Positions 3,190 through 59,277 of a stretch of DNA of 64,000 nt are shown here, piece by piece. Below the pieces are notes generated by a model, which searched no databases, was not told where the DNA came from, and saw only the letters and a program-made list of their open reading frames with translations. This stretch comes from an uncultured Chloroflexia bacterium (GTDB lineage: Bacteria > Chloroflexota > Chloroflexia > QHBQ01 > JADMIH01). Position 1 is the stretch's first letter; each line of letters starts with the position of its first letter. The stretch covers positions 32,001-96,000 of the forward strand of contig CAWCNY010000006.1 of NCBI GenBank assembly GCA_963797095.1, read 5' to 3'. A program made the translations under genes and the position numbers.

Positions 3190-5037
3190 ATGAATCCCGC
3201 CTCCAAAATCCGAAATCCAAAATCCGAGATCCAAAATCGAAAGGGTTGGTGGTACATCTGGCGCTTGGCCCGCTTCCGCTTCCCCGTCTACCTCCTGAGC
3301 GGCCTGCTCGCCAGCACCATGTTCTACGTCTTCCCTTTGATCCCCGGCCTATTCGTGCGCCAGATATTCGACGCGCTCTCCAATGGCGCGCCCGCCTACG
3401 ATAGCCTCTGGACCTACGTAGCCCTGATCGCTGCCATAGGCCCGCTCCAGATGCTGTTCACCATCGTGGGCGTCGGTGCAGAGACCACCATGCAACTCAC
3501 AACGGCGGCCCTCCTGCGCCGCAACCTCTTCGAGCGTATCTTGCAACGCCCCGGTGCCAAAGCCCTCCCTTCCTCTCCCGGCGAAGCGATCAGCCGCTTC
3601 CGCAACGATGTCAACGAGATCTACGGCTTCCTCACCTGGACCCTCGACCCCCTGGGCCAGGCTCTCGTCATCATCCTGGCCCTTGTCGTCCTGATCAGCA
3701 TCGACCCAATAATTACGGTGGCCGTCTTCCTCCCTCTGGTCGTAGTGCTTGTGGTTGTGAACTCGGCTACCAAGCGCATCCAGAAGTACCGCAAAGCTAA
3801 CCAGGAGGCCATCGGCGAGGTCACAAGCCTCCTGGGCGAGATATATGGCTCCGTTCTAGCCGTCAAAGTGGCTGGTGCCGAGGAGAACGTAGCGGCGCAC
3901 TTCCGTGGCGTCAACGAGGCCCGCCGCAAAGCCGCCCTCAACGACGTGCTTCTGACCGAACTCCTTAGCTCCATCTCCTTCAACGTCGCCAACCTCGGCA
4001 CCGGCCTGATGCTCCTGGTCGCCGCGCAGGCCATCCAGGGCGGCAGCTTCACCGTTGGCGACTTCGCCCTCTTCGTCTCGTATCTCGGCTGGCTGACTGT
4101 CGTAATCAGCATGTTCGGCAACTACCTCACAAAGTTTCGGCAGGTTCAGATTTCCCTGCAACGCGCCATCGAGCTATTGCAGGGCGCTCCACCTGAGATG
4201 CTTGTCCGCTACAACCCCGTCTACCTGCGAGGCTCCATTCCCCAACCAACCCCCATCCCCAAAACCGAGGCCCACACCCTCAATCGCCTCGAAGCTATTG
4301 GCCTCACCTACCACTATCCCGGCTCCTCACGAGGCGTCGAAGGAGTCAGCTTCAGCATCGAGCGCGGCTCCTTCACCGTCATCACTGGCCGCATCGGCGC
4401 GGGTAAAACCACCCTGCTGCGCGTGCTCCTGGGCCTCCTGCCCCGCGAATCAGGCACTGTCCTCTGGAACGGCGAGGAGGTGGACGACCCCGCCACCTTC
4501 TTAGTCCCGCCCCGCTGTGCCTACACCCCCCAGACCCCCCGCCTTTTCAGCACGACCCTGCGCGAGAACATCCTCCTCGGCCAGCACGATAACGAGCCTT
4601 CCATCTCAGCCGCCCTCCATGCCGCCGTGCTGGAACGCGACATAGGCGAGCTTGACGAGGGCCTCGATACGATAGTAGGCCCGCGAGGCGTCAAGCTGTC
4701 CGGAGGCCAGATGCAGCGCACAGCCGCCGCCCGCATGTTCGTCCGCCAATCCGAGCTATTAGTAGTGGACGACCTCTCAAGCGCCCTAGACGTAGAGACC
4801 GAGGCCGCCCTCTGGGAGCGCCTCGCCCGTCAGCCCAACGTAACCACCCTCGCCGTCTCCAACCGCCGCCCCGCCCTGCGTCGCGCAGGCCGGATAATAG
4901 TCGTCAAGCACGGCCATGTAGAGGGCCGAGGCACCCTGACCGACCTCCTGGAAACCTGCGAAGAAATGCGCCACCTCTGGCACGGCGAGCTAACCCCCGA
5001 AACCATCCCGGAAGCCCAAGAAGAGAACCCAATGTAG
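3190..5037 (+). CDS. ABC exporter, fused permease/ATP-binding subunit (second half of the heterodimer)
   Basis: TM domain; Walker A GRIGAGKT, LSGGQMQR, degenerate Walker B VVDDLSSALD. Start set to ATG 3190 because 3151-3189 lies in the IS end. Confidence 0.9.
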   Translation: MNPASKIRNPKSEIQNRKGWWYIWRLARFRFPVYLLSGLLASTMFYVFPLIPGLFVRQIFDALSNGAPAYDSLWTYVALIAAIGPLQMLFTIVGVGAETTMQLTTAALLRRNLFERILQRPGAKALPSSPGEAISRFRNDVNEIYGFLTWTLDPLGQALVIILALVVLISIDPIITVAVFLPLVVVLVVVNSATKRIQKYRKANQEAIGEVTSLLGEIYGSVLAVKVAGAEENVAAHFRGVNEARRKAALNDVLLTELLSSISFNVANLGTGLMLLVAAQAIQGGSFTVGDFALFVSYLGWLTVVISMFGNYLTKFRQVQISLQRAIELLQGAPPEMLVRYNPVYLRGSIPQPTPIPKTEAHTLNRLEAIGLTYHYPGSSRGVEGVSFSIERGSFTVITGRIGAGKTTLLRVLLGLLPRESGTVLWNGEEVDDPATFLVPPRCAYTPQTPRLFSTTLRENILLGQHDNEPSISAALHAAVLERDIGELDEGLDTIVGPRGVKLSGGQMQRTAAARMFVRQSELLVVDDLSSALDVETEAALWERLARQPNVTTLAVSNRRPALRRAGRIIVVKHGHVEGRGTLTDLLETCEEMRHLWHGELTPETIPEAQEENPM

Positions 5038-5465
5038 AGGCACCCTTTATAGGCAATGTTGTCGCATAAACTCACGAACGTGGCCCAAGCGCAGGCATTG
5101 CTAACGGGTGCCCTGTTCGTACACCATCCCAACATAGTCCCGGAGGGACGGCAGAACATAGCCCAGGGCGTAAGCTCTGTGGATAATACGCCACCCAAAG
5201 CAAGTAGTCCTGAAGGAACGCAAGAGAGCAGCCCAGGGTTTACGCCCTGGGCTAAGCCCAAGATAATGCCCTAGCCCCGTAGGGGCGTTAGAACATTCAC
5301 TCCGGTCTTGTATATGATGTAATGACGCAACCCTCTTACGTCCCTTCGGGACTATGGCTTGGGTGGCATTCCATCGGGTACTTACAAGGGGTACATCTTA
5401 CTATTGGTATTTCTATGCTGGTATTTTCATGCGACAACATTGCCCACAAGGGGTGCCTCTACATT
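5031..5465. repeat. REPIN/MITE-like element with ~37-bp imperfect inverted ends and internal REP-like palindromes
   Basis: AATGTAGAGGCACCCTTTATAGGCAATGTTGTCGCAT at 5031 is mirrored at 5429-5465. Internal palindromes GTCCCGGAGGGAC, AGCCCAGGGTTTACGCCCTGGGCT, GCCCCGTAGGGGC, GTCCCTTCGGGAC. Confidence 0.75.
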
Positions 5466-5501: not shown

Positions 5502-5808
5502 CGCCTATGAACGTGATACGTGCAAGAATAGGACATAGAATGCGCTCGAAAATACCGGAACTGCGGGCAAGAAGGACCAAATTGGCTTCCATTGTGGGCC
5601 CAGTCGCCTTCAATTCCACCTCGCATGCCATCAAATCCGTTGATTTGCCAGAGGCAGTAGCCCAATTAGGGCCCGGCGAGAGCAGTAAGGCGTATTTGTC
5701 GGCTAAGCGGGGCGTGAAATGGGTAGCTTCTAACCTTCAAACACGGTTATGAGGGGTTATAATCCCCTCATCTATGTCCTATTCTTGCACGTATCACGTT
5801 CATAGGCG
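5502..5808. mobile_element. MITE-like element with perfect 38-bp terminal inverted repeats
   Basis: CGCCTATGAACGTGATACGTGCAAGAATAGGACATAGA (5502-5539) is the exact reverse complement of 5771-5808. No transposase inside and no clear TSD. Confidence 0.72.
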
Positions 5809-6623: not shown

Positions 6624-7190
6624 TCAGCGACGGAAAACATCCTGATACACCTGCCAGCCGTCCGGACCAAGGCTATCGACGAGTCGGTAGTGCGTGCCAA
6701 CAAACTGGAAGAACCCATCCATCTCTGGCGGCAGACGATACAGCAGCGTCGGCTTCCATTGCCTGCGCGCGTTGACATCGATCGGCGGCGTGATCTTGTC
6801 GCTTGAGGACGCATCGATGATGAGAACGGGCGGATCAGCTTCAACCTCTCTCAAGAAATCGCTTATCATCGGGCTGCCGGTATATCCGTTTGTAAGCAGA
6901 GCGTACTGATATGCAAAACGAGACGTCGATCTCCCTTGAGCGGCGAAGTTCACGCCCGGCTCGGCGCCCCACATCAACACAGAGTCGGTCGACTTTGTAT
7001 GCGCCCACACATATTGGACTGCTTCAGCACGCGTTACTTCTGTTGTTGTGGGAGTACTGGTTCTTGTCAGCACCATGACCGAAGGGATTCCGATGATCAC
7101 GGGCAGAAAGGCACCGAGCACGAACACCCGTACCCCGGCGTTCCACTTCTCACCAGGTTTTGCACTCAGTCTGTTCCCGGCAAATAGCGC
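6624..7190 (-). pseudogene. C-terminal remnant of a membrane glycosyltransferase-associated protein
   Basis: One TM segment plus a 'SVLMWGAEPGVNFAAQGRSTSRFAY..PPVLIID..HYRLV' extracytoplasmic domain. The frame stays open upstream until a TGA inside the repeat at ~7195, with no convincing RBS. Confidence 0.5.
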
Positions 7191-7285
7191 TTGTCATCCT
7201 GAACGAAGTGAAGGATCTCGCTCCCCAAGATCACCTTCGCAAGCCCACCACGCCAGAGAGTGCCCACAACGAGCAAGATCCTCAA
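7190..7285 (+). repeat. REP-like ~95-bp module, copy 1
   Basis: TTGTCATCCTGAACGAAGTGAAGGATCTCGCTCCCCAAGATCAC...CAACGAGCAAGATCCTCA; a closely similar reverse-complement copy lies at 56038-56128. Confidence 0.8.
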
Positions 7286-7352
7286 ACTCACTCAACCAAC
7301 CCCAAAATCGCCCAAAAAACCACCCGCTTGGCCCTATCCAAATCCAAACAAA

Positions 7353-7740
7353 TGTGCTAAGTCCAATACAAGAAGTACTTTCACCCTCCCTGCCGCGCAA
7401 CATGGAGGACATAGAGACAAGACTGGTGTCCCTATGCAGCTTTGCGTTTAGCCTTTAGCACCTTACCAGAGGAACATACCAAAGAATGGTCAGCCAAAAG
7501 CCGGTGGCTCTCTCAACACCACCCCCGCTCCGGTCTCCCAACAGCGGACCCTAAGGGGACCAGCACGGAGCGGTAATCCAGTGTGCATTCGTGTCACACC
7601 CTCTATCGGCAAGAGGAACCCTGCGCCACACGAACCCAGTTGCGCCCACAGGGACACCATCCCATAAGCTAACCCATCATAAAAAGGAAAGGGTGCATGA
7701 GGACCCAACCAGACCCCATGCACCCCCTTCCCCATACCTA
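7353..7740 (+). ncRNA. Candidate large structured non-coding RNA / repeat element, copy A
   Basis: Block-by-block homology with the reverse complement of 58818-59087, 57745-57795 and 55915-55965; helices are preserved by compensatory and G-U changes (see findings). Confidence 0.55.
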
Positions 7741-7856
7741 AAACTTCAAACTCAAAACCTCTAAAAACCTTCGTGCCCTTCGTACTCCTTCGCCCCTTCG
7801 TGTACAAAATCCAAATACGCAGTAAGCAGTACGAAATATGCAGTAAGCACTATCCC

Positions 7857-21197: not shown

Positions 21198-22709
21198 ATG
21201 CAGAGTAGCGAGTTTCAGGCCGTTTGCGACCTGTCACCTGCCCTCACTAGTATTGTGAAGGAATTTGAGGGGCTCGTCAAACAACTTTGGATATATGCTC
21301 AACGCAACCCGGATGCTACTTTGAGCAGTCTCGAAGAAAGAGCACGTCAACTGCGCTCGGACTGTTTCGCCTCAGCCTTAGAAGCCGCAGCCCAACTGCA
21401 TCGTGCCATGATAGAGGAAGAATGGCTGCTTGGGCACAAGCAGTGTGACTGCGGGCAGACACCCCAGTACAAGGGTAAGCAGCGGCGCACTGTGCAAACA
21501 TGGGTAGGCACGGTCACATTGGAGAGAGGTTACTTCTACTGTAAAGGGTGTGGCACCGGACGCTACCCGCTGGATGAGGCTCTAGGCATACCCGCACGGG
21601 AACACTTCTCGGACGGAGTGCAACAAGGAGTGTGCCTGCTGGGTGTGCAGATGCCTTTCGAGCAGGCTGCACATGCAGTGGAGGTACTCACTGGCATGTC
21701 GGTCTCTCCAAGAGAAGCCGAGCGCATGACTGAACAGAGGGGGCTTACATTAGAGGGGAGCTTGCAAGAGGAGAGGAGAGCTTGCAAGAGGAGAGGAGAG
21801 CTTGCAAGAGGAGAGGAGAGCTTGCAAGAGGAGAGGAGAGCTTGCAAGAGGAGAGGAGAGCTTGCAAGAGGAGAGGAGAGCTTGCAAGCAGAAGATCAAA
21901 CGCTAGGGGCAAGTCCCACCTCTCAGAAAGGTTCAAAGGTTGCAGATGGAGCATTGGGCTTGGGCACATGGGCGGCGACGCTGGACGCTGGCAAGGTGCG
22001 CTACGAAGATGGGTGGCATGACGCTAAAGCGGGAGTGGTGTTTTGGGCCGAGCCTGCATACAACGAAGCAGGAGAGATAGAGGGGGCAAGAGCCACCCAT
22101 CAGAGCTATGTGGCGGAGGTCGGCTCGATGGAGCGGGCAGGAAAGCGGTTGAGTGCTGAAGCATGGAGGAGAGGGATAGGCCCTGAGGAGCAGGTTGTAT
22201 GTCTGGGAGATGGGGCACCCACCAACTGGATACAGTTCGATGAGCACTTTGCCAACAGGGTAGAGGTACTCGACTGGTATCACGCCATGGAGCACCTGTG
22301 GCAAGCAGGTAATGGTATCTTCGGGCAGGGCACACCAGACGCCGCAAGATGGGTGAAGCGTTGGGAGAAGGAATTATGGGAGGGAAGGGTAGAAGCAGTC
22401 ATTGTGGCTCTACACAGAGAGAGCAAACGTGAAGGGGAGGCGGGAGAAGCGGCACGAGAGCAGATTCATTACTTTGAGACGAACAAAGAGAGGATGCGCT
22501 ACTCCGAGTACCGGGCATTGGGCTTCCCAGTTGGTTCAGGCACGGTGGAGAGTGCATGCAAGCGGCTGATTGGTGCCCGTCTCAAGGGAGCAGGCATGTG
22601 TTGGAGCAAACCAGGAGCACAAGGGGTGCTGACACTGAGAGCCGAACTGCTCAGTGAGAGGTGGGAGCAATGCTGGCCCAAAACTCGCCCTCTCAGAAAA
22701 GTCGCCTAA
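21198..22709 (+). CDS. ISKra4-family transposase
   Basis: CDCG..CKGC zinc motif, LDAG, GDGA, LDWYHAMEHL, GSGTVESACK. Confidence 0.9.
   Translation: MQSSEFQAVCDLSPALTSIVKEFEGLVKQLWIYAQRNPDATLSSLEERARQLRSDCFASALEAAAQLHRAMIEEEWLLGHKQCDCGQTPQYKGKQRRTVQTWVGTVTLERGYFYCKGCGTGRYPLDEALGIPAREHFSDGVQQGVCLLGVQMPFEQAAHAVEVLTGMSVSPREAERMTEQRGLTLEGSLQEERRACKRRGELARGEESLQEERRACKRRGELARGEESLQAEDQTLGASPTSQKGSKVADGALGLGTWAATLDAGKVRYEDGWHDAKAGVVFWAEPAYNEAGEIEGARATHQSYVAEVGSMERAGKRLSAEAWRRGIGPEEQVVCLGDGAPTNWIQFDEHFANRVEVLDWYHAMEHLWQAGNGIFGQGTPDAARWVKRWEKELWEGRVEAVIVALHRESKREGEAGEAAREQIHYFETNKERMRYSEYRALGFPVGSGTVESACKRLIGARLKGAGMCWSKPGAQGVLTLRAELLSERWEQCWPKTRPLRKVA
21761..21888. repeat. 20-bp VNTR (CTTGCAAGAGGAGAGGAGAG)x6 plus partial, inside the transposase
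   Basis: Six perfect units at 21761-21880 followed by CTTGCAAG. Confidence 0.95.
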
Positions 22710-55769: not shown

Positions 55770-56037
55770 GTTAGAGGATGGAGGAGATCTAATATCTCTG
55801 TCGGAAGATTGGCTGCTTTTCTTATTCGGTGCACGCATTTTAGCCCTACCTTATCTCAAGCTTTTCCTCAGGAAAAGGCAGAAGTAACACACGTGGTGGT
55901 TTAGGTATTAGGTATAGGAAAGAGGGCACATGAGGGATTTGGGTCCTTATGCACCCTTTTCCTTTTGTTTGGGCTTTGCTAACGATGGTCTTTGCGGGAA
56001 TTCGATCCTGATCGCTTTCTCATCTTGTTGGGAGTTG

Positions 56038-56128
56038 TGAGGATCTTGCTCGTTGGTGGCACTTTTTGGCGTGGTTTGTAAGCGCGGAGTGATCTTGGGG
56101 AGCGAGATCCTTCGCTCAGGATGACAAA
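56038..56128 (-). repeat. REP-like ~90-bp module, copy 2
   Basis: Reverse complement closely matches 7190-7285. Confidence 0.8.
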
Positions 56129-56172
56129 GGCCTATGGGAAGGCTTCTTTCATATATTTACGCATCTACTTAG

Positions 56173-57648
56173 CTCGACTTTGTACATTACCAACTCAATA
56201 GCAAACCGCGTAGGCCAGTCTCTCCACGTGTGAGCGTGGGACTAAACAGACATCAGGGTCTGTGGGGGCTGTCTGAAAAGTGAAGTTGCCCCACAAGTGC
56301 CGTCTGACTTGTGCCAGCACGTCCGAGAAGGTAGCCTCCCTCTTTTGGTACCAGGCAGTGCGCTGCACAGGCACTTTTCCGTCTGGGTGTAGAGCCTTTC
56401 CAAACAGAGCCACCAGGCTGAACATGCCAAGCAAGCAGGGTGTGCTACGCTCAATCGCCAGGTCTGACCATTGTCGCTGGGTTTCCACTCCCAGGTGTGC
56501 TCGGCTCTCCTCAAACGTCACCTCGATAGTCCACCGCTTGATGAACCGGCTCACCACCTCCACTGCCTGCAAGCTCTGGTCAGTGCACAAGTAGGCTCGC
56601 GGTTCTCTGTTGCCTTGAGGGTCACGGGTGAGCACCCACCTGATTGGCAACACCGCAGAGCCAATCCGATACCATACGCACGTGCCGCTTGCCACTTCAA
56701 GTTCTTGCTCCGATCCGTCATACCACCTTACCTTTATCTTCACCCACTCCGTGTTGGGGTCTGAGAGTACCTGGCTCAGTTTGGGCAAGGCTGCTCCTTT
56801 CACTCTCGGCCTGTCCATTGTGCCCGGTTTGCGAGGTGGCGCAGGTTCATACAAGGCGCATTCCCAACGCATTGGCGCTACAAGCGTGATCTGGTGCTTG
56901 ACACAGCACAACCCCAATTCCAAGATCGAATAGGCAGTGTCGCCAACCAACGAAACAGATATGTCTGGTAGCCAGCGCCTTACCATCATCACCATCTGCT
57001 GGGCTATCTCTCCTACCGTCTTGTGCGCCTTACCCAATTGCTCACTTACTTTAGGTGTGGTGGCCAGCACTGAGAAGAAAGGAAGCGCCCATGCCCTGCT
57101 TGACCAGGGTACTTGCACTACCAGCATCATTACCACCCAACGCAACCCACTTGTACTGACCGACTGCTCTTTGCTCGATTGCACCGAGTCTCGGTAATGG
57201 CCGCGCTTGGAGATTTTGCGGCCCCATCTTCTTTCCAGCGTCTCGTCAATAGCAATCTCGACGGTTGCACCTGCCGCAACAAACGTATTGACCAGCAATT
57301 GGAGAAGGAGCCGGCTCAACATTAGGCAAGACCAGCTTGCACGGTTGAGCACCTGATGAAACAGGGTAAAGTCCTCACCATGTTGCAAGCCCATCTGCTT
57401 GAGGGCTGCCGTCACGGTCCGACGGCCTCTTGCCAGGATTGTGCCAACCACCAGCACGAGCGCTTTGTCCCAGGTTGGACGGGTGAAAGCTGGCCTGAAA
57501 TGGAGCAGCACCTGTATAATCGGGTTGGGTAGGGACATCGCTTCTCTCCTTGTCGCAGATGGTGTTGTGGTAGACTTCCATCTTACAACAAAGGGTCTGC
57601 GGGTCCCTTTACCCGTTTTCACCTCCTTTCATTTTGTACAAAGTCGAG
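56173..57648 (-). mobile_element. IS701-like insertion sequence
   Basis: 14-bp TIR CTCGACTTTGTACA; 5-bp TSD CTTAG (56168-56172, 57649-57653). Confidence 0.88.
56195..57538 (-). CDS. IS701-like DDE transposase
   Basis: 'IAIDETLERRWG', 'VGDTAYS', 'RWTIEVTFEE'; AGGAG RBS before ATG 57538. Confidence 0.88.
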   Translation of the reverse strand: MSLPNPIIQVLLHFRPAFTRPTWDKALVLVVGTILARGRRTVTAALKQMGLQHGEDFTLFHQVLNRASWSCLMLSRLLLQLLVNTFVAAGATVEIAIDETLERRWGRKISKRGHYRDSVQSSKEQSVSTSGLRWVVMMLVVQVPWSSRAWALPFFSVLATTPKVSEQLGKAHKTVGEIAQQMVMMVRRWLPDISVSLVGDTAYSILELGLCCVKHQITLVAPMRWECALYEPAPPRKPGTMDRPRVKGAALPKLSQVLSDPNTEWVKIKVRWYDGSEQELEVASGTCVWYRIGSAVLPIRWVLTRDPQGNREPRAYLCTDQSLQAVEVVSRFIKRWTIEVTFEESRAHLGVETQRQWSDLAIERSTPCLLGMFSLVALFGKALHPDGKVPVQRTAWYQKREATFSDVLAQVRRHLWGNFTFQTAPTDPDVCLVPRSHVERLAYAVCY

Positions 57649-57795
57649 CTTAGCCTATGCATTCCCCCAAATTGATATGTGCCTTTGCTGGTCTGATTCC
57701 TTTCAGGTTATCGTTAGTTGGGCATGGTTGGGTTGCTGATAGGTTGATGTCCCTATGGCGCAACTGGTTGGTGTGGCGCAGTAAGCACAATACTG

Positions 57796-58812
57796 ACGAT
57801 TGATGCAGAACCCTGCAAAAGAGGTATTGAAAAGGTATCGAAGTGAATGATACAACGGAAGCTAACATAAACCCCTTTGCAAGGAGGCTTCCGATGAACA
57901 TGGACTTCGATACCTTCCTGGTAGGATTATACCTGATGGTCGACCAGTGGCTGCAAAACGATGGTGCTCGTTACATACGCCCACAGGGTGGTACTCCACC
58001 ACGCCTGACTGACGGCGAGATGCTGACCCTCCTTTTGGCTCACCAGCTTGCCCAAGCCAAGTGGCCTGAGCGCAGATGGCTGCGCTTTGTGTGGCACAAC
58101 TATCAGGAGTGGTTTCCAGCGCTGACCACACAGAGTGCCTACAACCGTCGGGCTCGCAACCTTTGGGGAGTGCTGAATGCAATGCGTATACAGTTGGTGC
58201 GAGAGGTGTCAGCACACCTTGCTCCCGAAGGAGTGACCGATGGCACTCCAATCCATGTGAGGCATTGGCGCAGATACGGCCCTCACCACCTGGCCTTGCC
58301 TGAGGCTGAGTTGGGCTACTGTGCTGCCAGGCGAGAATACTACTACGGGTACAAGTTGGTGGCCCTCGTCACGCCCAATGGGATTATCATCGAGTGGGTG
58401 CTGATGCCGGCTAGTGGTGATGAGCGAGATGGATTGGAAGCGATGATGGCAGATGATGAGGGGTGGCTCATCTGGGCTGACAAAGGACTGCTTGATGAGA
58501 GAAGGCAAAGGAGGTTGGAGGAGGAGCAGAGCATAGTGCTGATTACTCCCACCCGCAGCAACCAGCGAGTGCAGTTGCACCCGGCAGTGCAAGAGAGGCT
58601 GAGTGCCGTCCGACCCATCGTGGAGACGACCTTTGCCCAAGCCAAGGAGTACATAGACTTGGAGCACCCGCATGCCTACGCATGGAGTGGGTTGGCGCTG
58701 CGTATCATAGCCAAGTTGACCGCTATGGCTGTAGTAGCTTGGGCCAACCTGCGTCACGGCTTGTCTCCCTTATCCTTCGTCAACTTTGCTTGGTAGGTTT
58801 TGCATCAATCGT
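57796..58812 (+). mobile_element. IS982-family insertion sequence
   Basis: TIR ACGATTGATGCA(G/A)AACC at both ends; 5-bp TSD TACTG (57791-57795, 58813-58817). Confidence 0.88.
57894..58796 (+). CDS. IS982-family transposase
   Basis: 'LTDGEMLT', 'QSAYNRR', 'DGTPI', 'GYCAARREYYYGYKL', 'ADKG', 'RPIVETTF'; AGGAGG RBS. Confidence 0.88.
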   Translation: MNMDFDTFLVGLYLMVDQWLQNDGARYIRPQGGTPPRLTDGEMLTLLLAHQLAQAKWPERRWLRFVWHNYQEWFPALTTQSAYNRRARNLWGVLNAMRIQLVREVSAHLAPEGVTDGTPIHVRHWRRYGPHHLALPEAELGYCAARREYYYGYKLVALVTPNGIIIEWVLMPASGDERDGLEAMMADDEGWLIWADKGLLDERRQRRLEEEQSIVLITPTRSNQRVQLHPAVQERLSAVRPIVETTFAQAKEYIDLEHPHAYAWSGLALRIIAKLTAMAVVAWANLRHGLSPLSFVNFAW

Positions 58813-59192
58813 TACTGGTATTGCCTTGAGAGGGTGTGGCACGAATGCACACTGCTTTACTGCTCCGTGCTTTGTCCCCGAAGGGTCCGGTGTTGGGAGA
58901 CCGGAGCGCTTTTTGAGATTGTGTTTTGGTGCAGCCGCGACTTTGGCTGCTCTCTTCTTTTTGTTTGTTCCTTTGGTAAGGTGCTAAAGGTAAACGCAAA
59001 GATACACAGGGACACCAGCCTTGTCCTCGTGTCCTCCATGCTGCGCGGCAGGGAGGTTGAAACTGTTTCACTCTTGATCTTAGCACAGGCGTTCTGCTTA
59101 TGCAAGTACCCATTGGTATAGTTTTTATGGTTGTCCGTTGCCGGTTGTCGGTTTTCGGTTGGTAGTTGATGGATGATGGGTGATGGCTCTTA

Positions 59193-59277
59193 CGCCCCTC
59201 CGGGGCTAAGGCGGCTGAGGTGGATGGGGAACCCCACGCTTACGCATGGGGCTACTTTCTTTCGCCACTCCGTGGCT
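59193..59277. repeat. REP-like palindrome cluster (similar style to the interior of 5031-5465)
   Basis: GCCCCTCCGGGGC, CCCCACGCTTACGCATGGGG, GCCACTCCGTGGC. Confidence 0.65.

What the first reader, a model, noticed from the sequence alone, without database searches (positions are those of the whole stretch)
7353..7740. Duplicated ~350-390 nt non-coding element with covarying helices and a predicted pseudoknot: candidate undescribed large structured RNA
Seen: this intergenic block recurs 50 kb away on the minus strand (58818-59087, 57745-57795, 55915-55965). Linkers diverge between copies but pairing is kept (A vs B): (1) CTCC..GGAG stem in both; (2) GGACAT/GTGTCC vs GGACAC/GTGTCC; (3) AGCCA/TGGCT vs GCAGCC/GGCTGC; (4) GCTCCG/CGGAGC enclosing CCC-TAAG-GGG vs CCC-TTCG-GGG; (5) GTGTGCA-TTCG-TG(T/C)CACAC; (6) terminal GGGTGCATG/CATGCACCC vs AGGGTGCAT/ATGTGCCCT. 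Two long-range pairings are also kept: TGGTGTCCCT (7424-7433) with AGGGACACCA (7650-7659), 13 bp with two G-U in copy B; and GCGCAAC (7395-7401) with GTTGCGC (7639-7645), one G-U in B. These interleave (X<Y<X'<Y'), which is a pseudoknot, and Y competes with local hairpin (2). Most wobbles are G-U on the A+/B- strand. Inference: a transcribed, multi-copy, possibly switchable or catalytic RNA, or the RNA of a non-autonomous mobile element. I could not see hallmark motifs of RNase P, tmRNA, group I/II introns, HEARO or common riboswitches.
Basis: partly seen in the sequence, partly recalled or inferred. Interest (0 to 1): 0.85.

Follow-up and report, generated by a model that had tools for sequence, protein, structure and literature searches.

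The report
Multi-copy promoter-bearing structured RNA-like element
This intergenic block is one copy of a many-copy, clade-restricted element that looks like a self-contained gene for a large folded non-coding RNA of unknown function, matching no described RNA family.

Summary
The repeat is real, but it is a family, not a duplication. I found 15-16 loci in the 6.0-Mb genome, and 26-29 in one sister species. No copy was accepted in the other 149 Chloroflexia genomes sampled, a 185,579-species pattern scan, plasmids, phages or viral contigs. One short metagenome contig also carries it.

Copy B is split by two DDE-transposase insertion sequences. Rfam gives no hit.

Each unit reads as promoter-like sequence (TTGnAn, 17 nt, TGnTAnnnT), a 5' hairpin, two conserved hairpins, a variable multi-helix middle, an A-rich linker and a strong terminal hairpin.

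Structure is supported best in the sister-type copies: 97.4% of cells paired, and 12 of 98 pairs carry compensatory changes, above both the shuffled and the slid controls.

The 7-bp helix is not kept in the sister type. The 13-bp long-range helix is kept, but it competes with local hairpins, one of which covaries.

No protein is linked, neighbouring genes are diverse, and no TIR/TSD signature appears. Copies seem to be spread and homogenised by recombination.

The strand is not settled and expression could not be tested.

Best reading (0.45): a new, lineage-specific family of stand-alone structured ncRNA genes. Main rival: a DNA-level mosaic repeat.

The parts
7335..7363 (+). Promoter-like region of copy A: -35-like TATCCA (7335-7340), a 17-nt spacer holding TG (7355-7356), and -10-like TAAGTC (7358-7363). 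This copy has lost the last T of the -10.
   Evidence: My own alignment of 30 copies: T1 and A2 in 30 of 30, T6 in 27 of 30, TG in 29 of 30, and TTG at a 17-nt spacing in 20 of 30. The promoter scan did not call it in any of 3 copies scanned, because it scores 8 of 12 and the scan needs 9.
7372..7382 (+). 5'-terminal hairpin P0 (GAAG-UAC-UUUC), lying at the predicted transcript start.
   Evidence: A hairpin is kept with different sequences across copies: GAAAC/GTTTC, GAAAG/CTTTC, and a longer GTGAAAT...AATTCAC form. This is my reading of the alignments.
7385..7408 (+). Hairpin P1, CCTCC (7385-7389) with GGAGG (7404-7408).
   Evidence: 5 pairs, one with a C-G to U-A double change. The sister type has CCCTCY/RGAGGG.
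7409..7436 (+). P2 region. ACATAG...CTATG plus GAC/GTC form a local hairpin. The strand TGGTGTCCCTATG (7424-7436) is also the 5' arm of long-range helix Y.
   Evidence: helix 2: 9 pairs, one-sided changes only. (13-nt inverted repeat). (Y closes the multi-branch domain in the plus-strand MFE).
7437..7646 (+). Variable middle domain. It includes GCTCCG (7527-7532) with CGGAGC (7566-7571), the hairpin 7581-7599, and a local GCGCCAC/GTTGCGC stem ending at 7645.
   Evidence: helices at columns 242-247/329-334, 344-362 and 386-417. The linkers differ by indels and low-complexity runs. Most sister-type copies have a different middle.
7647..7676 (+). 3' core: CACAGGGACACCA (7647-7659, the 3' arm of Y) and the following GCTAAC.
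   Evidence: The 22-nt motif used for the collection scans lies here. In the sister type, Y/R at this site covaries with a local downstream partner (UA 6, CG 5).
7677..7731 (+). A-rich linker and terminal hairpin T, with stem arms at 7691-7702 and 7714-7725.
   Evidence: and (helix 15, 99.2% paired). T is called terminator-like on the MINUS strand in 2 of 3 copies scanned, and not in copy A.
7190..7290 (+). Module M1, a separate hairpin-forming dispersed repeat. It lies upstream of copy A, but between the body and T in most other copies.
   Evidence: 25 genomic hits, about half of them away from the element. Module order is shown. Its first ~35 nt recur across the genus.
7743..7850 (+). Module D, a separate heptamer-rich dispersed repeat that follows T.
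   Evidence: 26 genomic hits, most of them away from the element.
55915..59087 (-). Copy B. The element pieces lie at 59087-58818, 57795-57745 and 55965-55915, with M1 at about 56130-56038. It is interrupted by two insertion sequences.
   Evidence: DDE_Tnp_1 E 5e-10 to 5e-14; DDE_5 E 3e-23.

Best explanation
Copy A is one member, probably with a weakened promoter, of a lineage-specific family of stand-alone genes for a large (about 360-600 nt) structured non-coding RNA, read on the plus strand of copy A.

Each unit carries its own A/T-rich tract and a sigma-70-type extended -10 promoter. A hairpin sits at the very 5' end. Two conserved hairpins follow. A variable multi-helix domain can be closed by a 10-13-bp long-range helix. 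An A-rich linker leads to a strong terminal hairpin. I infer that this hairpin protects the 3' end and blocks incoming antisense transcription.

No dedicated protein appears to move the copies. They sit in repeat-rich intergenic DNA, and ectopic recombination or gene conversion spreads and homogenises them.

Shown: copy number, narrow distribution, helix covariation, the pattern of promoter-motif conservation, absence of a linked protein, and chimeric or identical copies.

Inferred: transcription, strand, RNA ends, and a trans-acting role such as a protein-binding or scaffold RNA.
For: Copy number. There are 15-16 loci in G000. G017 has 29 matches to the 5' domain. One Chloroflexia MAG has 26 loci with the 3' motif.

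Structure. In 12 sister-type copies, 97.4% of cells pair and 12 of 98 pairs have double changes. The covariation score is 0.134 against 0.086 in shuffles (0 of 500 reach it). Slid controls give 0-4 such pairs.

Promoter. In 30 copies, T1 and A2 of the -10 are invariant, T6 holds in 27, TG in 29, and TTG sits at exactly 17 nt in 20, while the non-critical -10 positions vary. The same TGCTATACT type of motif precedes a real gene in both species.

Composition. Unpaired columns are 35% A, 34% C, 15% G and 16% T on the plus strand.

Selection or homogenisation. The 5' and 3' blocks are about 79-95% identical between the two species, while an orthologous coding gene is 77% identical.

Recombination. 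The C3 copy is 98.8% identical to copy A over 643 nt but shares its left flank with the C4 copy. Copies at shared sites carry their own genome's type.

No linked protein. No Rfam family.
Against: No expression data exist. The strand is not settled. The minus strand folds lower, and wobble counts in shared helices do not discriminate.

The 13-bp helix has an A-C mismatch on plus, which would be G-U on minus. By my count this affects 12 copies.

The promoter scan did not call the promoter. The terminal hairpin has its T-run on the minus strand and no U-tract on plus.

Copy A itself has lost the -10 T. Copy B is tolerated as a wreck.

The family is found in only two species, which is typical of selfish repeats.

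Much of the covariation separates two subfamilies, so the independent events are few. The structure was also derived from the same sequences.
Confidence: 0.45

Rival explanations
1. The element is a DNA-level mosaic intergenic repeat, a non-autonomous mobile or recombination-spread element. Its inverted repeats would act in DNA or single-stranded DNA, or simply persist. The promoter-like motif would be incidental or would only affect neighbouring genes.
For: It has a high copy number in only two species. Positions are mostly not shared: of 25 sister-genome loci, 2 are syntenic with G000 copies and 1 is near-syntenic. The element is absent at 4 of 5 orthologous sites tested.

It always sits among other dispersed modules (M1, D) and heptamer microsatellites. 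One filled site is about 960 nt of repeats against a 4-nt empty site, bounded by inverted D-like segments.

Helices shared by both strands are almost purely Watson-Crick: 682 WC, 6 GU and 10 AC cells. Copies are tolerated when broken.
Against: The 13-nt inverted repeat is internal, not terminal. No target-site duplication appears at the one clean filled/empty pair.

No autonomous relative or linked transposase was found. Compensatory changes keep many internal helices that a MITE would not need.

The -10 varies only at its non-critical positions. Unpaired regions have a strong strand-specific A+C bias.
Confidence: 0.27
2. The element is a portable cis-acting cassette. It would supply a promoter and a long leader to the gene downstream, and its terminal hairpin would insulate the region by terminating convergent (minus-strand) transcription.
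For: By my ORF calls, the downstream gene is co-oriented in 11 of 16 G000 loci. The terminal hairpin is terminator-like on the minus strand in 2 of 3 copies scanned.

In copy A it lies about 120 nt past the stop of the convergent MFS gene. The copy upstream of glnA is kept in both species.
Against: 11 of 16 is not far from chance. The downstream genes have no common theme: DeoC aldolase, phosphonate-binding protein, sigma-70, GlnA, MutS-like protein, haem peroxidase.

Distances to the next gene are about 180-900 nt and are filled with other repeats. Some copies face convergent genes (MFS, GGDEF, MobA-like). A leader does not need conserved multi-helix architecture.
Confidence: 0.13
3. The functional strand is the minus strand of copy A. 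The unit would then be a terminator followed by a structured G/U-rich RNA or 3'-UTR element.
For: Minus-strand folding energy is lower and has the better z-score, -3.65 against -2.79. The hairpin plus T-run lies on minus. The commonest mismatch in the 13-bp helix is G-U on minus.
Against: On minus, the terminator would sit at the 5' end of the unit, and I saw no conserved promoter after it. This is my reading.

G/U-rich strands fold low by composition alone. Several covarying or conserved helices carry G-U on plus; by my count, G-U outnumbers A-C 30 to 14 cells in the helices with double changes. That count is biased, because the structure was predicted on plus.
Confidence: 0.08

Closest known systems
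HEARO RNA (IsrB/IscB omega RNA; recalled from the literature, and in Rfam)
   Same: Both are large structured RNAs present in many dispersed copies per genome, in intergenic DNA, and behave like mobile elements.
   Different: No Rfam HEARO hit was found at gathering or permissive thresholds. No IsrB, IscB or TnpB-like ORF, nor any other shared ORF, lies next to any of 16 copies. The unit carries its own promoter.
Mosaic intergenic repeats such as BOX, ERIC/IRU, BIME and Correia elements (recalled)
   Same: Both are modular, dispersed and intergenic, combine with other repeat modules in variable order, form stable hairpins, and some (Correia) carry promoters.
   Different: Those are about 35-200 bp with simple hairpins or terminal inverted repeats. 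This unit is 360-600 nt, with more than 10 helices supported by compensatory changes and no terminal inverted repeats.
Multi-copy bacterial sRNA families with their own promoters, such as cyanobacterial NsiR1 and Yfr2-type families (recalled)
   Same: Both have several to a dozen paralogous copies, each with promoter-like sequence and a terminal hairpin.
   Different: Those are about 60-100 nt, often tandem, with canonical terminators. This one is 4-8 times larger, dispersed, lacks a U-tract on its presumed strand, and has no known regulon or target.
Orphan large ncRNAs (OLE, GOLLD, ROOL, raiA; recalled, and in Rfam)
   Same: Both are large, multi-helix, and have no known function at discovery.
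   Different: Those occur in one or a few copies per genome and across many lineages. This one has 15-29 copies in two species only and matches none of them.

Membership tests
Any Rfam 15 family (including HEARO, GOLLD, ROOL, OLE, raiA, group I/II introns, RNase P, tmRNA, 6S and riboswitches) | A covariance-model match at the family's gathering score | tested here: not met
   The whole window at gathering gave only 3 Acido-Lenti-1 hits elsewhere. Permissive scans of copy A, one sister-type copy and one type-2 copy gave only sub-threshold miRNA-hairpin matches.
OMEGA/HEARO-type guide RNA of a transposon nuclease | At least some copies adjacent to an IscB, IsrB or TnpB gene | tested here: not met
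   An all-against-all comparison of ORFs within 4-5 kb of 16 copies found no shared neighbour. Pfam on 18 flanking ORFs showed 11 unrelated housekeeping or DUF families, 2 DDE transposases (the insertions in copy B) and 5 with no family. The first 705-aa ORF is probably spurious.
MITE / non-autonomous IS | Terminal inverted repeats at the ends of the unit | tested here: not met
   In 3 copies the longest inverted repeat (13 nt) is internal. It lies about 55-75 nt inside the conserved 5' end and more than 70 nt before the 3' end.
MITE / non-autonomous IS | A target-site duplication at filled versus empty sites | tested here: inconclusive
   One clean pair (filled L110 against empty G000 C5:111292) shows no duplication longer than 1-2 nt, and the insert is a 960-nt mosaic rather than the unit alone. 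Three other pairs have unrelated intergenic content.
CsrB/RsmZ-type protein sponge | A CsrA/RsmA protein encoded in the genome | tested here: not met
   PF02599 was not found in G000, which is 93% complete. The controls hit in 3 reference genomes.
Riboswitch or cis-regulatory leader | A conserved class of downstream, co-oriented gene | tested here: not met
   The downstream genes are diverse and some are convergent.
Type I toxin-antitoxin or small-protein gene | A conserved short ORF with its frame kept | tested here: not met
   Indels of 1-2 nt are scattered through the conserved blocks. The candidate ATG in P1 is AAG in many copies.
Sigma-70 extended -10 promoter | TGnTAnnnT with a -35 TTG at 17 nt, conserved in register | tested here: inconclusive
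   The motif is conserved in 27-30 of 30 copies at the key positions. It falls below the scan tool's threshold, and no transcription start data exist.

The most novel reading that the evidence does not exclude
This is a new class of large structured RNA that propagates as a promoter-carrying RNA gene through a genome with no linked protein. It might be a self-spreading RNA gene, or the RNA partner of a still unrecognised trans-encoded system. The mutually exclusive long-range helix and local hairpins would act as a conformational switch, and microsatellite-filled loops would vary from copy to copy.
Probability: 0.2. Interest if true: 0.8.

Novelty: new variant of a known kind. Interest (0 to 1): 0.52.

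Why it matters
Large, multi-helix bacterial RNAs are rare, and most have turned out to be ribozymes, ribonucleoprotein scaffolds or guides of mobile elements.

Here a 360-600-nt element with covarying helices and its own promoter-like sequence has reached 15-29 copies per genome with no associated protein. That makes it either an unusual way for an RNA gene to multiply or an unusually elaborate selfish repeat.

It is also a compact case of concerted evolution of non-coding paralogues.

Its reach is limited. It was found in two uncultured Chloroflexia species and one metagenome contig, and nothing is known about its expression.

Tried and rejected
Expression. No RNA holder was listed. Only 3 soil DNA runs with small word shares appeared, and read laying was not used.

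CsrA-sponge idea. I raised it because of the many GGA motifs and dropped it because CsrA is absent.

Conserved protein neighbour. None was found.

Coding. Rejected because the indels break every frame.

Wider homologues. BLAST found the element in 1 of 60 relatives. The 22-nt motif scan of genome contigs returned 39 loci; 26 came from one Chloroflexia MAG, and the 13 from other taxa lacked the element by nhmmer. In metagenome contigs 1 of 18 loci was real, and viral contigs gave 0. BLAST against plasmids and phages gave nothing.

5' domain model. Over 150 further class genomes (151 searched including G000), model R1 hit G017 and, weakly (27-34 bits), 3 of 4 genomes of another genus. I inspected 5 of these 8 weak matches. 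They are unrelated GC-rich hairpin repeats, and I rejected them by eye. True G000 copies also score only 28-42 bits, so R1 discriminates poorly.

glnA leader idea. The element lies upstream of glnA in G000 and G017, but not in the 17 other genus genomes examined.

Empty sites. They gave no clean boundaries.

Strand. Tests by energy and by wobble were undecided.

Literature. Two full-text searches returned nothing relevant. I saw the listings and abstract starts only, and read no paper.

Slips. One search had a bad reference and was redone. One search used a faulty regular expression and was redone.

Full report
THE OBSERVATION

The block at 7353-7740 does recur on the minus strand near 59 kb. 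The repeat finder reports arms of 84, 51, 35 and 32 nt at 82-91% complementarity between 7372-7612 and 58821-59069.

They are one copy ('B') that two insertion sequences have split. The ORF at 57843-58796 (+) hits DDE_Tnp_1 and DDE_Tnp_1_3. The ORF at 56195-57622 (-) hits DDE_5.

A FAMILY, NOT A DUPLICATION

A BLAST search of the window's own genome (G000; 6.02 Mb, 8 contigs, 93% complete) gave 30 matches that fall into 15-16 loci at 67-100% identity. nhmmer gave 18 body hits.

One locus, on contig C3, is 98.8% identical to copy A over exactly 643 nt, which is window 7191-7832. Its flanks are unrelated.

The neighbourhood is modular:
- The 'body' (7347-7676) and the terminal hairpin T (7677-7742) go together.
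- M1 (7190-7290, 25 hits) and D (7743-7850, 26 hits) are independent dispersed repeats.
- M1 lies upstream of the body in copies A, C3 and C4_525.
- In most other copies M1 lies between the body and T.

DISTRIBUTION

BLAST of the element against 60 relatives hit only one genome of the same genus, G017. That is 1 of 25 genus genomes, a count that includes the unpublished genomes G016, G021 and G022, all negative.

A 22-nt motif from the 3' core was scanned against three collections:
- One genome per 185,579 species: 39 loci. Of these, 26 come from a single record titled as a Chloroflexia MAG. The other 13, from unrelated taxa, lack the element by nhmmer.
- Metagenome contigs: 18 loci, of which one (L129) is real.
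- Viral contigs: none.

BLAST against plasmids and phages found nothing.

I built a covariance model of the 5' domain (R1) and ran it over 151 class genomes, G000 included. It found 14 matches in G000 and 29 in G017. It also gave 8 weak matches (27-34 bits) in 3 of 4 genomes of another genus. The 5 I inspected are unrelated GC-rich hairpin repeats. R1 separates true G000 copies (28-42 bits) from these poorly, so this negative is soft.

KNOWN FAMILIES

Rfam 15 at gathering thresholds found only three Acido-Lenti-1 hits elsewhere in the window. Permissive scans of copy A, a sister-type copy and a type-2 copy gave only sub-threshold miRNA-hairpin matches.

ANATOMY

Upstream of every copy lies a conserved segment. 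I aligned 30 distinct copies: 15 from G000, and 15 from the sister genome and L129. These were the survivors of 35 regular-expression hits, after I removed by eye 5 that carry no element.
- The -10-like hexamer keeps T1 and A2 in 30 of 30 copies and T6 in 27 of 30. Positions 3-5 vary (TAAGAT, TATGAT, TATACT, TATAAT and others).
- TG precedes the hexamer in 29 of 30.
- A TTG-led hexamer lies exactly 17 nt upstream in 20 of 30.
- An A/T-rich tract precedes that hexamer.

The consensus scan did not call this promoter in any of 3 copies, because it scores 8 of 12 and the tool needs 9. The promoter is therefore my reading, not a tool call.

Copy A, with C3 and C4_525, has TAAGTC, so it has lost the key T.

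A hairpin (P0) sits right at the predicted start and is kept with different sequences. Then come P1 (CCTCC/GGAGG) and the P2 region.

The middle differs between the G000 type and most sister-type copies. One sister copy (L093, also fetched as L044) has the G000-type middle.

The 3' core (CCAGTTGCGCC-AYAGGGACACC) follows. The sister type then has an extra hairpin. After that come an A-rich linker and hairpin T.

Loops and flanks are full of heptamer microsatellites.

IS THE STRUCTURE REAL?

I aligned 12 of the 14 full-length sister-type copies. I left out L093, which has a different middle, and L085, which is cut by its contig end.

RNAalifold predicted 99 pairs, 12 of them with compensatory double changes. 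I counted the 98 pairs that remained after dropping one isolated long-range pair.

| Measure | Observed | Control |
|---|---|---|
| Cells forming a standard pair | 97.4% | 94.6% in shuffles (0 of 500 reach it) |
| Cells with double changes | 45 | 19.2 in shuffles (0 of 500) |
| Covariation score | 0.134 | 0.086 in shuffles (0 of 500) |
| Pairs with double changes | 12 | 0-4 when partners are slid 1-3 columns |

Helix 6 alone has 5 of 8 pairs changed on both sides.

Three caveats apply. The structure was derived from these same sequences. Most double changes separate two subfamilies, so independent events are few. The shuffle control ignores relatedness.

For the G000 type I used 12 of the 16 loci plus L093. 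I left out the C3 duplicate, split copy B, the 3'-truncated C3_351 and the rearranged C2_564. Here only 4 of 47 predicted pairs show double changes.

Helix Y (13 bp) is the longest inverted repeat in each of 3 copies examined. It closes the multi-branch domain in the plus-strand MFE of copy A.

Its covariation is weak in the G000-type alignment. Two of 13 pairs have double changes, and 18-63 of 500 shuffles reach the observed values.

In the sister type, the variable T/C in its 3' arm covaries with a local downstream partner (U-A in 6, C-G in 5), while the 5' arm never changes. At that position a local hairpin is better supported than Y.

The 5' arm of Y can also pair locally, in the P2 extension.

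Helix X (7 bp) has no double change. Its 5' strand is replaced in the sister type by loops that keep at most about 4 complementary bases, by my reading. Its 3' strand has local alternatives.

The interleaved pseudoknot is therefore not supported. What remains is a set of mutually exclusive pairings.

WHICH STRAND?

The strand is undecided by computation.
- The minus strand folds lower. The consensus energies are -129.7 against -106.5 kcal/mol, and the z-scores for copy A are -3.65 against -2.79. A G/U-rich strand is expected to behave this way.
- In the 59 pairs predicted on both strands there are 682 Watson-Crick cells, 6 G-U on plus and 10 G-U on minus.
- Hairpin T has its T-run on the minus strand. 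The scan calls it terminator-like there in 2 of 3 copies.

Three things favour plus:
- The promoter motif.
- The composition of unpaired columns: A 35%, C 34%, G 15%, T 16%.
- G-U on plus in several supported helices. By my count this is 30 cells against 14 A-C cells, a count biased towards the strand that was folded.

CONTEXT AND MOBILITY

No ORF is shared among the neighbourhoods of the 16 copies.

The flanking genes are diverse: MFS transporter, GGDEF, DeoC aldolase, MobA-like, phosphonate-binding protein, sigma-70, glutamine synthetase, MutS-like, haem peroxidase, DUF4491 and DUF309.

By my ORF calls, the downstream gene is co-oriented in 11 of 16 loci.

I tested five orthologous sites in G017. 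The element is present only upstream of glnA, where the contig begins inside the element. It is absent at the MFS, sigma-70, MutS-like and peroxidase sites.

It is also not upstream of glnA in the 17 other genus genomes I examined, having left out the unpublished ones.

I then ran the comparison the other way. Of 25 sister-genome loci compared with G000:
- Two are syntenic with a G000 copy. One is glnA. The other is the C2_343 site, where the element is in the opposite orientation.
- One is near-syntenic, at C3_351.
- The rest map to G000 regions without the element.

One clean pair shows about 960 nt of repeat mosaic, including the unit, in the sister genome. G000 has 4 nt between a stop codon and the next gene's TTGACA-17-TATAAA promoter. 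There is no evident target duplication. Other pairs simply have unrelated intergenic filler.

The C3 copy has the body of copy A but the left flank of C4. Copies at shared sites carry their own genome's type. Both facts point to gene conversion and concerted evolution.

WHAT IT MOST LIKELY IS

My best reading (0.45) is a lineage-specific family of stand-alone genes for a large structured ncRNA, transcribed on the plus strand of copy A. Recombination among repeat-rich intergenic regions would multiply and homogenise them.

The main rival (0.27) is a DNA-level mosaic repeat whose promoter-likeness is incidental. Lesser rivals are a portable promoter and insulator cassette (0.13) and a minus-strand RNA (0.08).

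I raised a CsrA-sponge idea and dropped it, because CsrA was not found.

Expression could not be tested. Two literature searches returned nothing relevant; I saw the listings only.

NOVELTY AND SCORE

The element matches no described RNA family and fails the defining tests for MITEs, omega RNAs, riboswitches and type I toxin systems.

It resembles HEARO at its discovery in being large, structured and many-copy, but it has a promoter and no ORF. It also resembles mosaic repeats such as BOX and BIME, but it is far larger and more structured.

It is confined to two uncultured species and has no expression data, so I score interest at about 0.5.

Noticed in passing
window 5136-5181 (-), 5206-5251 (-), 59232-59277 (+): There are three Rfam Acido-Lenti-1 RNA hits (40-42 bits, gathering score 37) in a Chloroflexia genome. 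One lies about 150 nt upstream of copy B on the opposite strand. A similar fragment lies upstream of copy C4_686. It looks like another dispersed repeat.
   Followed up: no
window 55915-59087: Two different DDE-transposase insertion sequences (DDE_Tnp_1 type and DDE_5 type) have landed inside one copy of the element, about 1 kb apart.
   Followed up: partly
window 7190-7290 and 56038-56130; 25 sites in G000: Module M1 is a hairpin-forming repeat of about 95 nt. Its first ~35 nt occur many times, often as close inverted pairs, in most genomes of the genus. It looks like a small MITE-like or REP-like repeat, independent of the element.
   Followed up: partly
flanks and loops of the element in G000 and in loci L079-L117: Heptamer microsatellites are abundant in intergenic DNA and inside the element's loops. 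Units such as CAGTAAG, GGTACTC, CACTCGT, CTCTGCG and CCGACAA vary in number between copies. They recall the short tandem repeats of filamentous cyanobacteria (recalled).
   Followed up: no
window 21732-21911: There is a tandem array of about 7-9 copies of a 20-nt unit (family D1).
   Followed up: no
window 5502-5539 / 5771-5808 and 5031-5070 / 5426-5465: There is a perfect 38-nt inverted repeat 231 nt apart, and a 40-nt inverted repeat (90%) 355 nt apart (I3 and I4). They may be small non-autonomous elements.
   Followed up: no
G000 C2:342030-343002 versus locus L081:1942-2447: The same intergenic site holds the element in opposite orientations in the two species, while both flanks stay collinear.
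   Followed up: no
loci L172-L174, L177, L178 (another Chloroflexia genus): GC-rich hairpin repeats of the type GGGGCGTGGGGAAACCTGGTTTCCCCACGCCCC, often next to a GGAGGG...CCCTCC palindrome, occur in several copies per genome.
   Followed up: no
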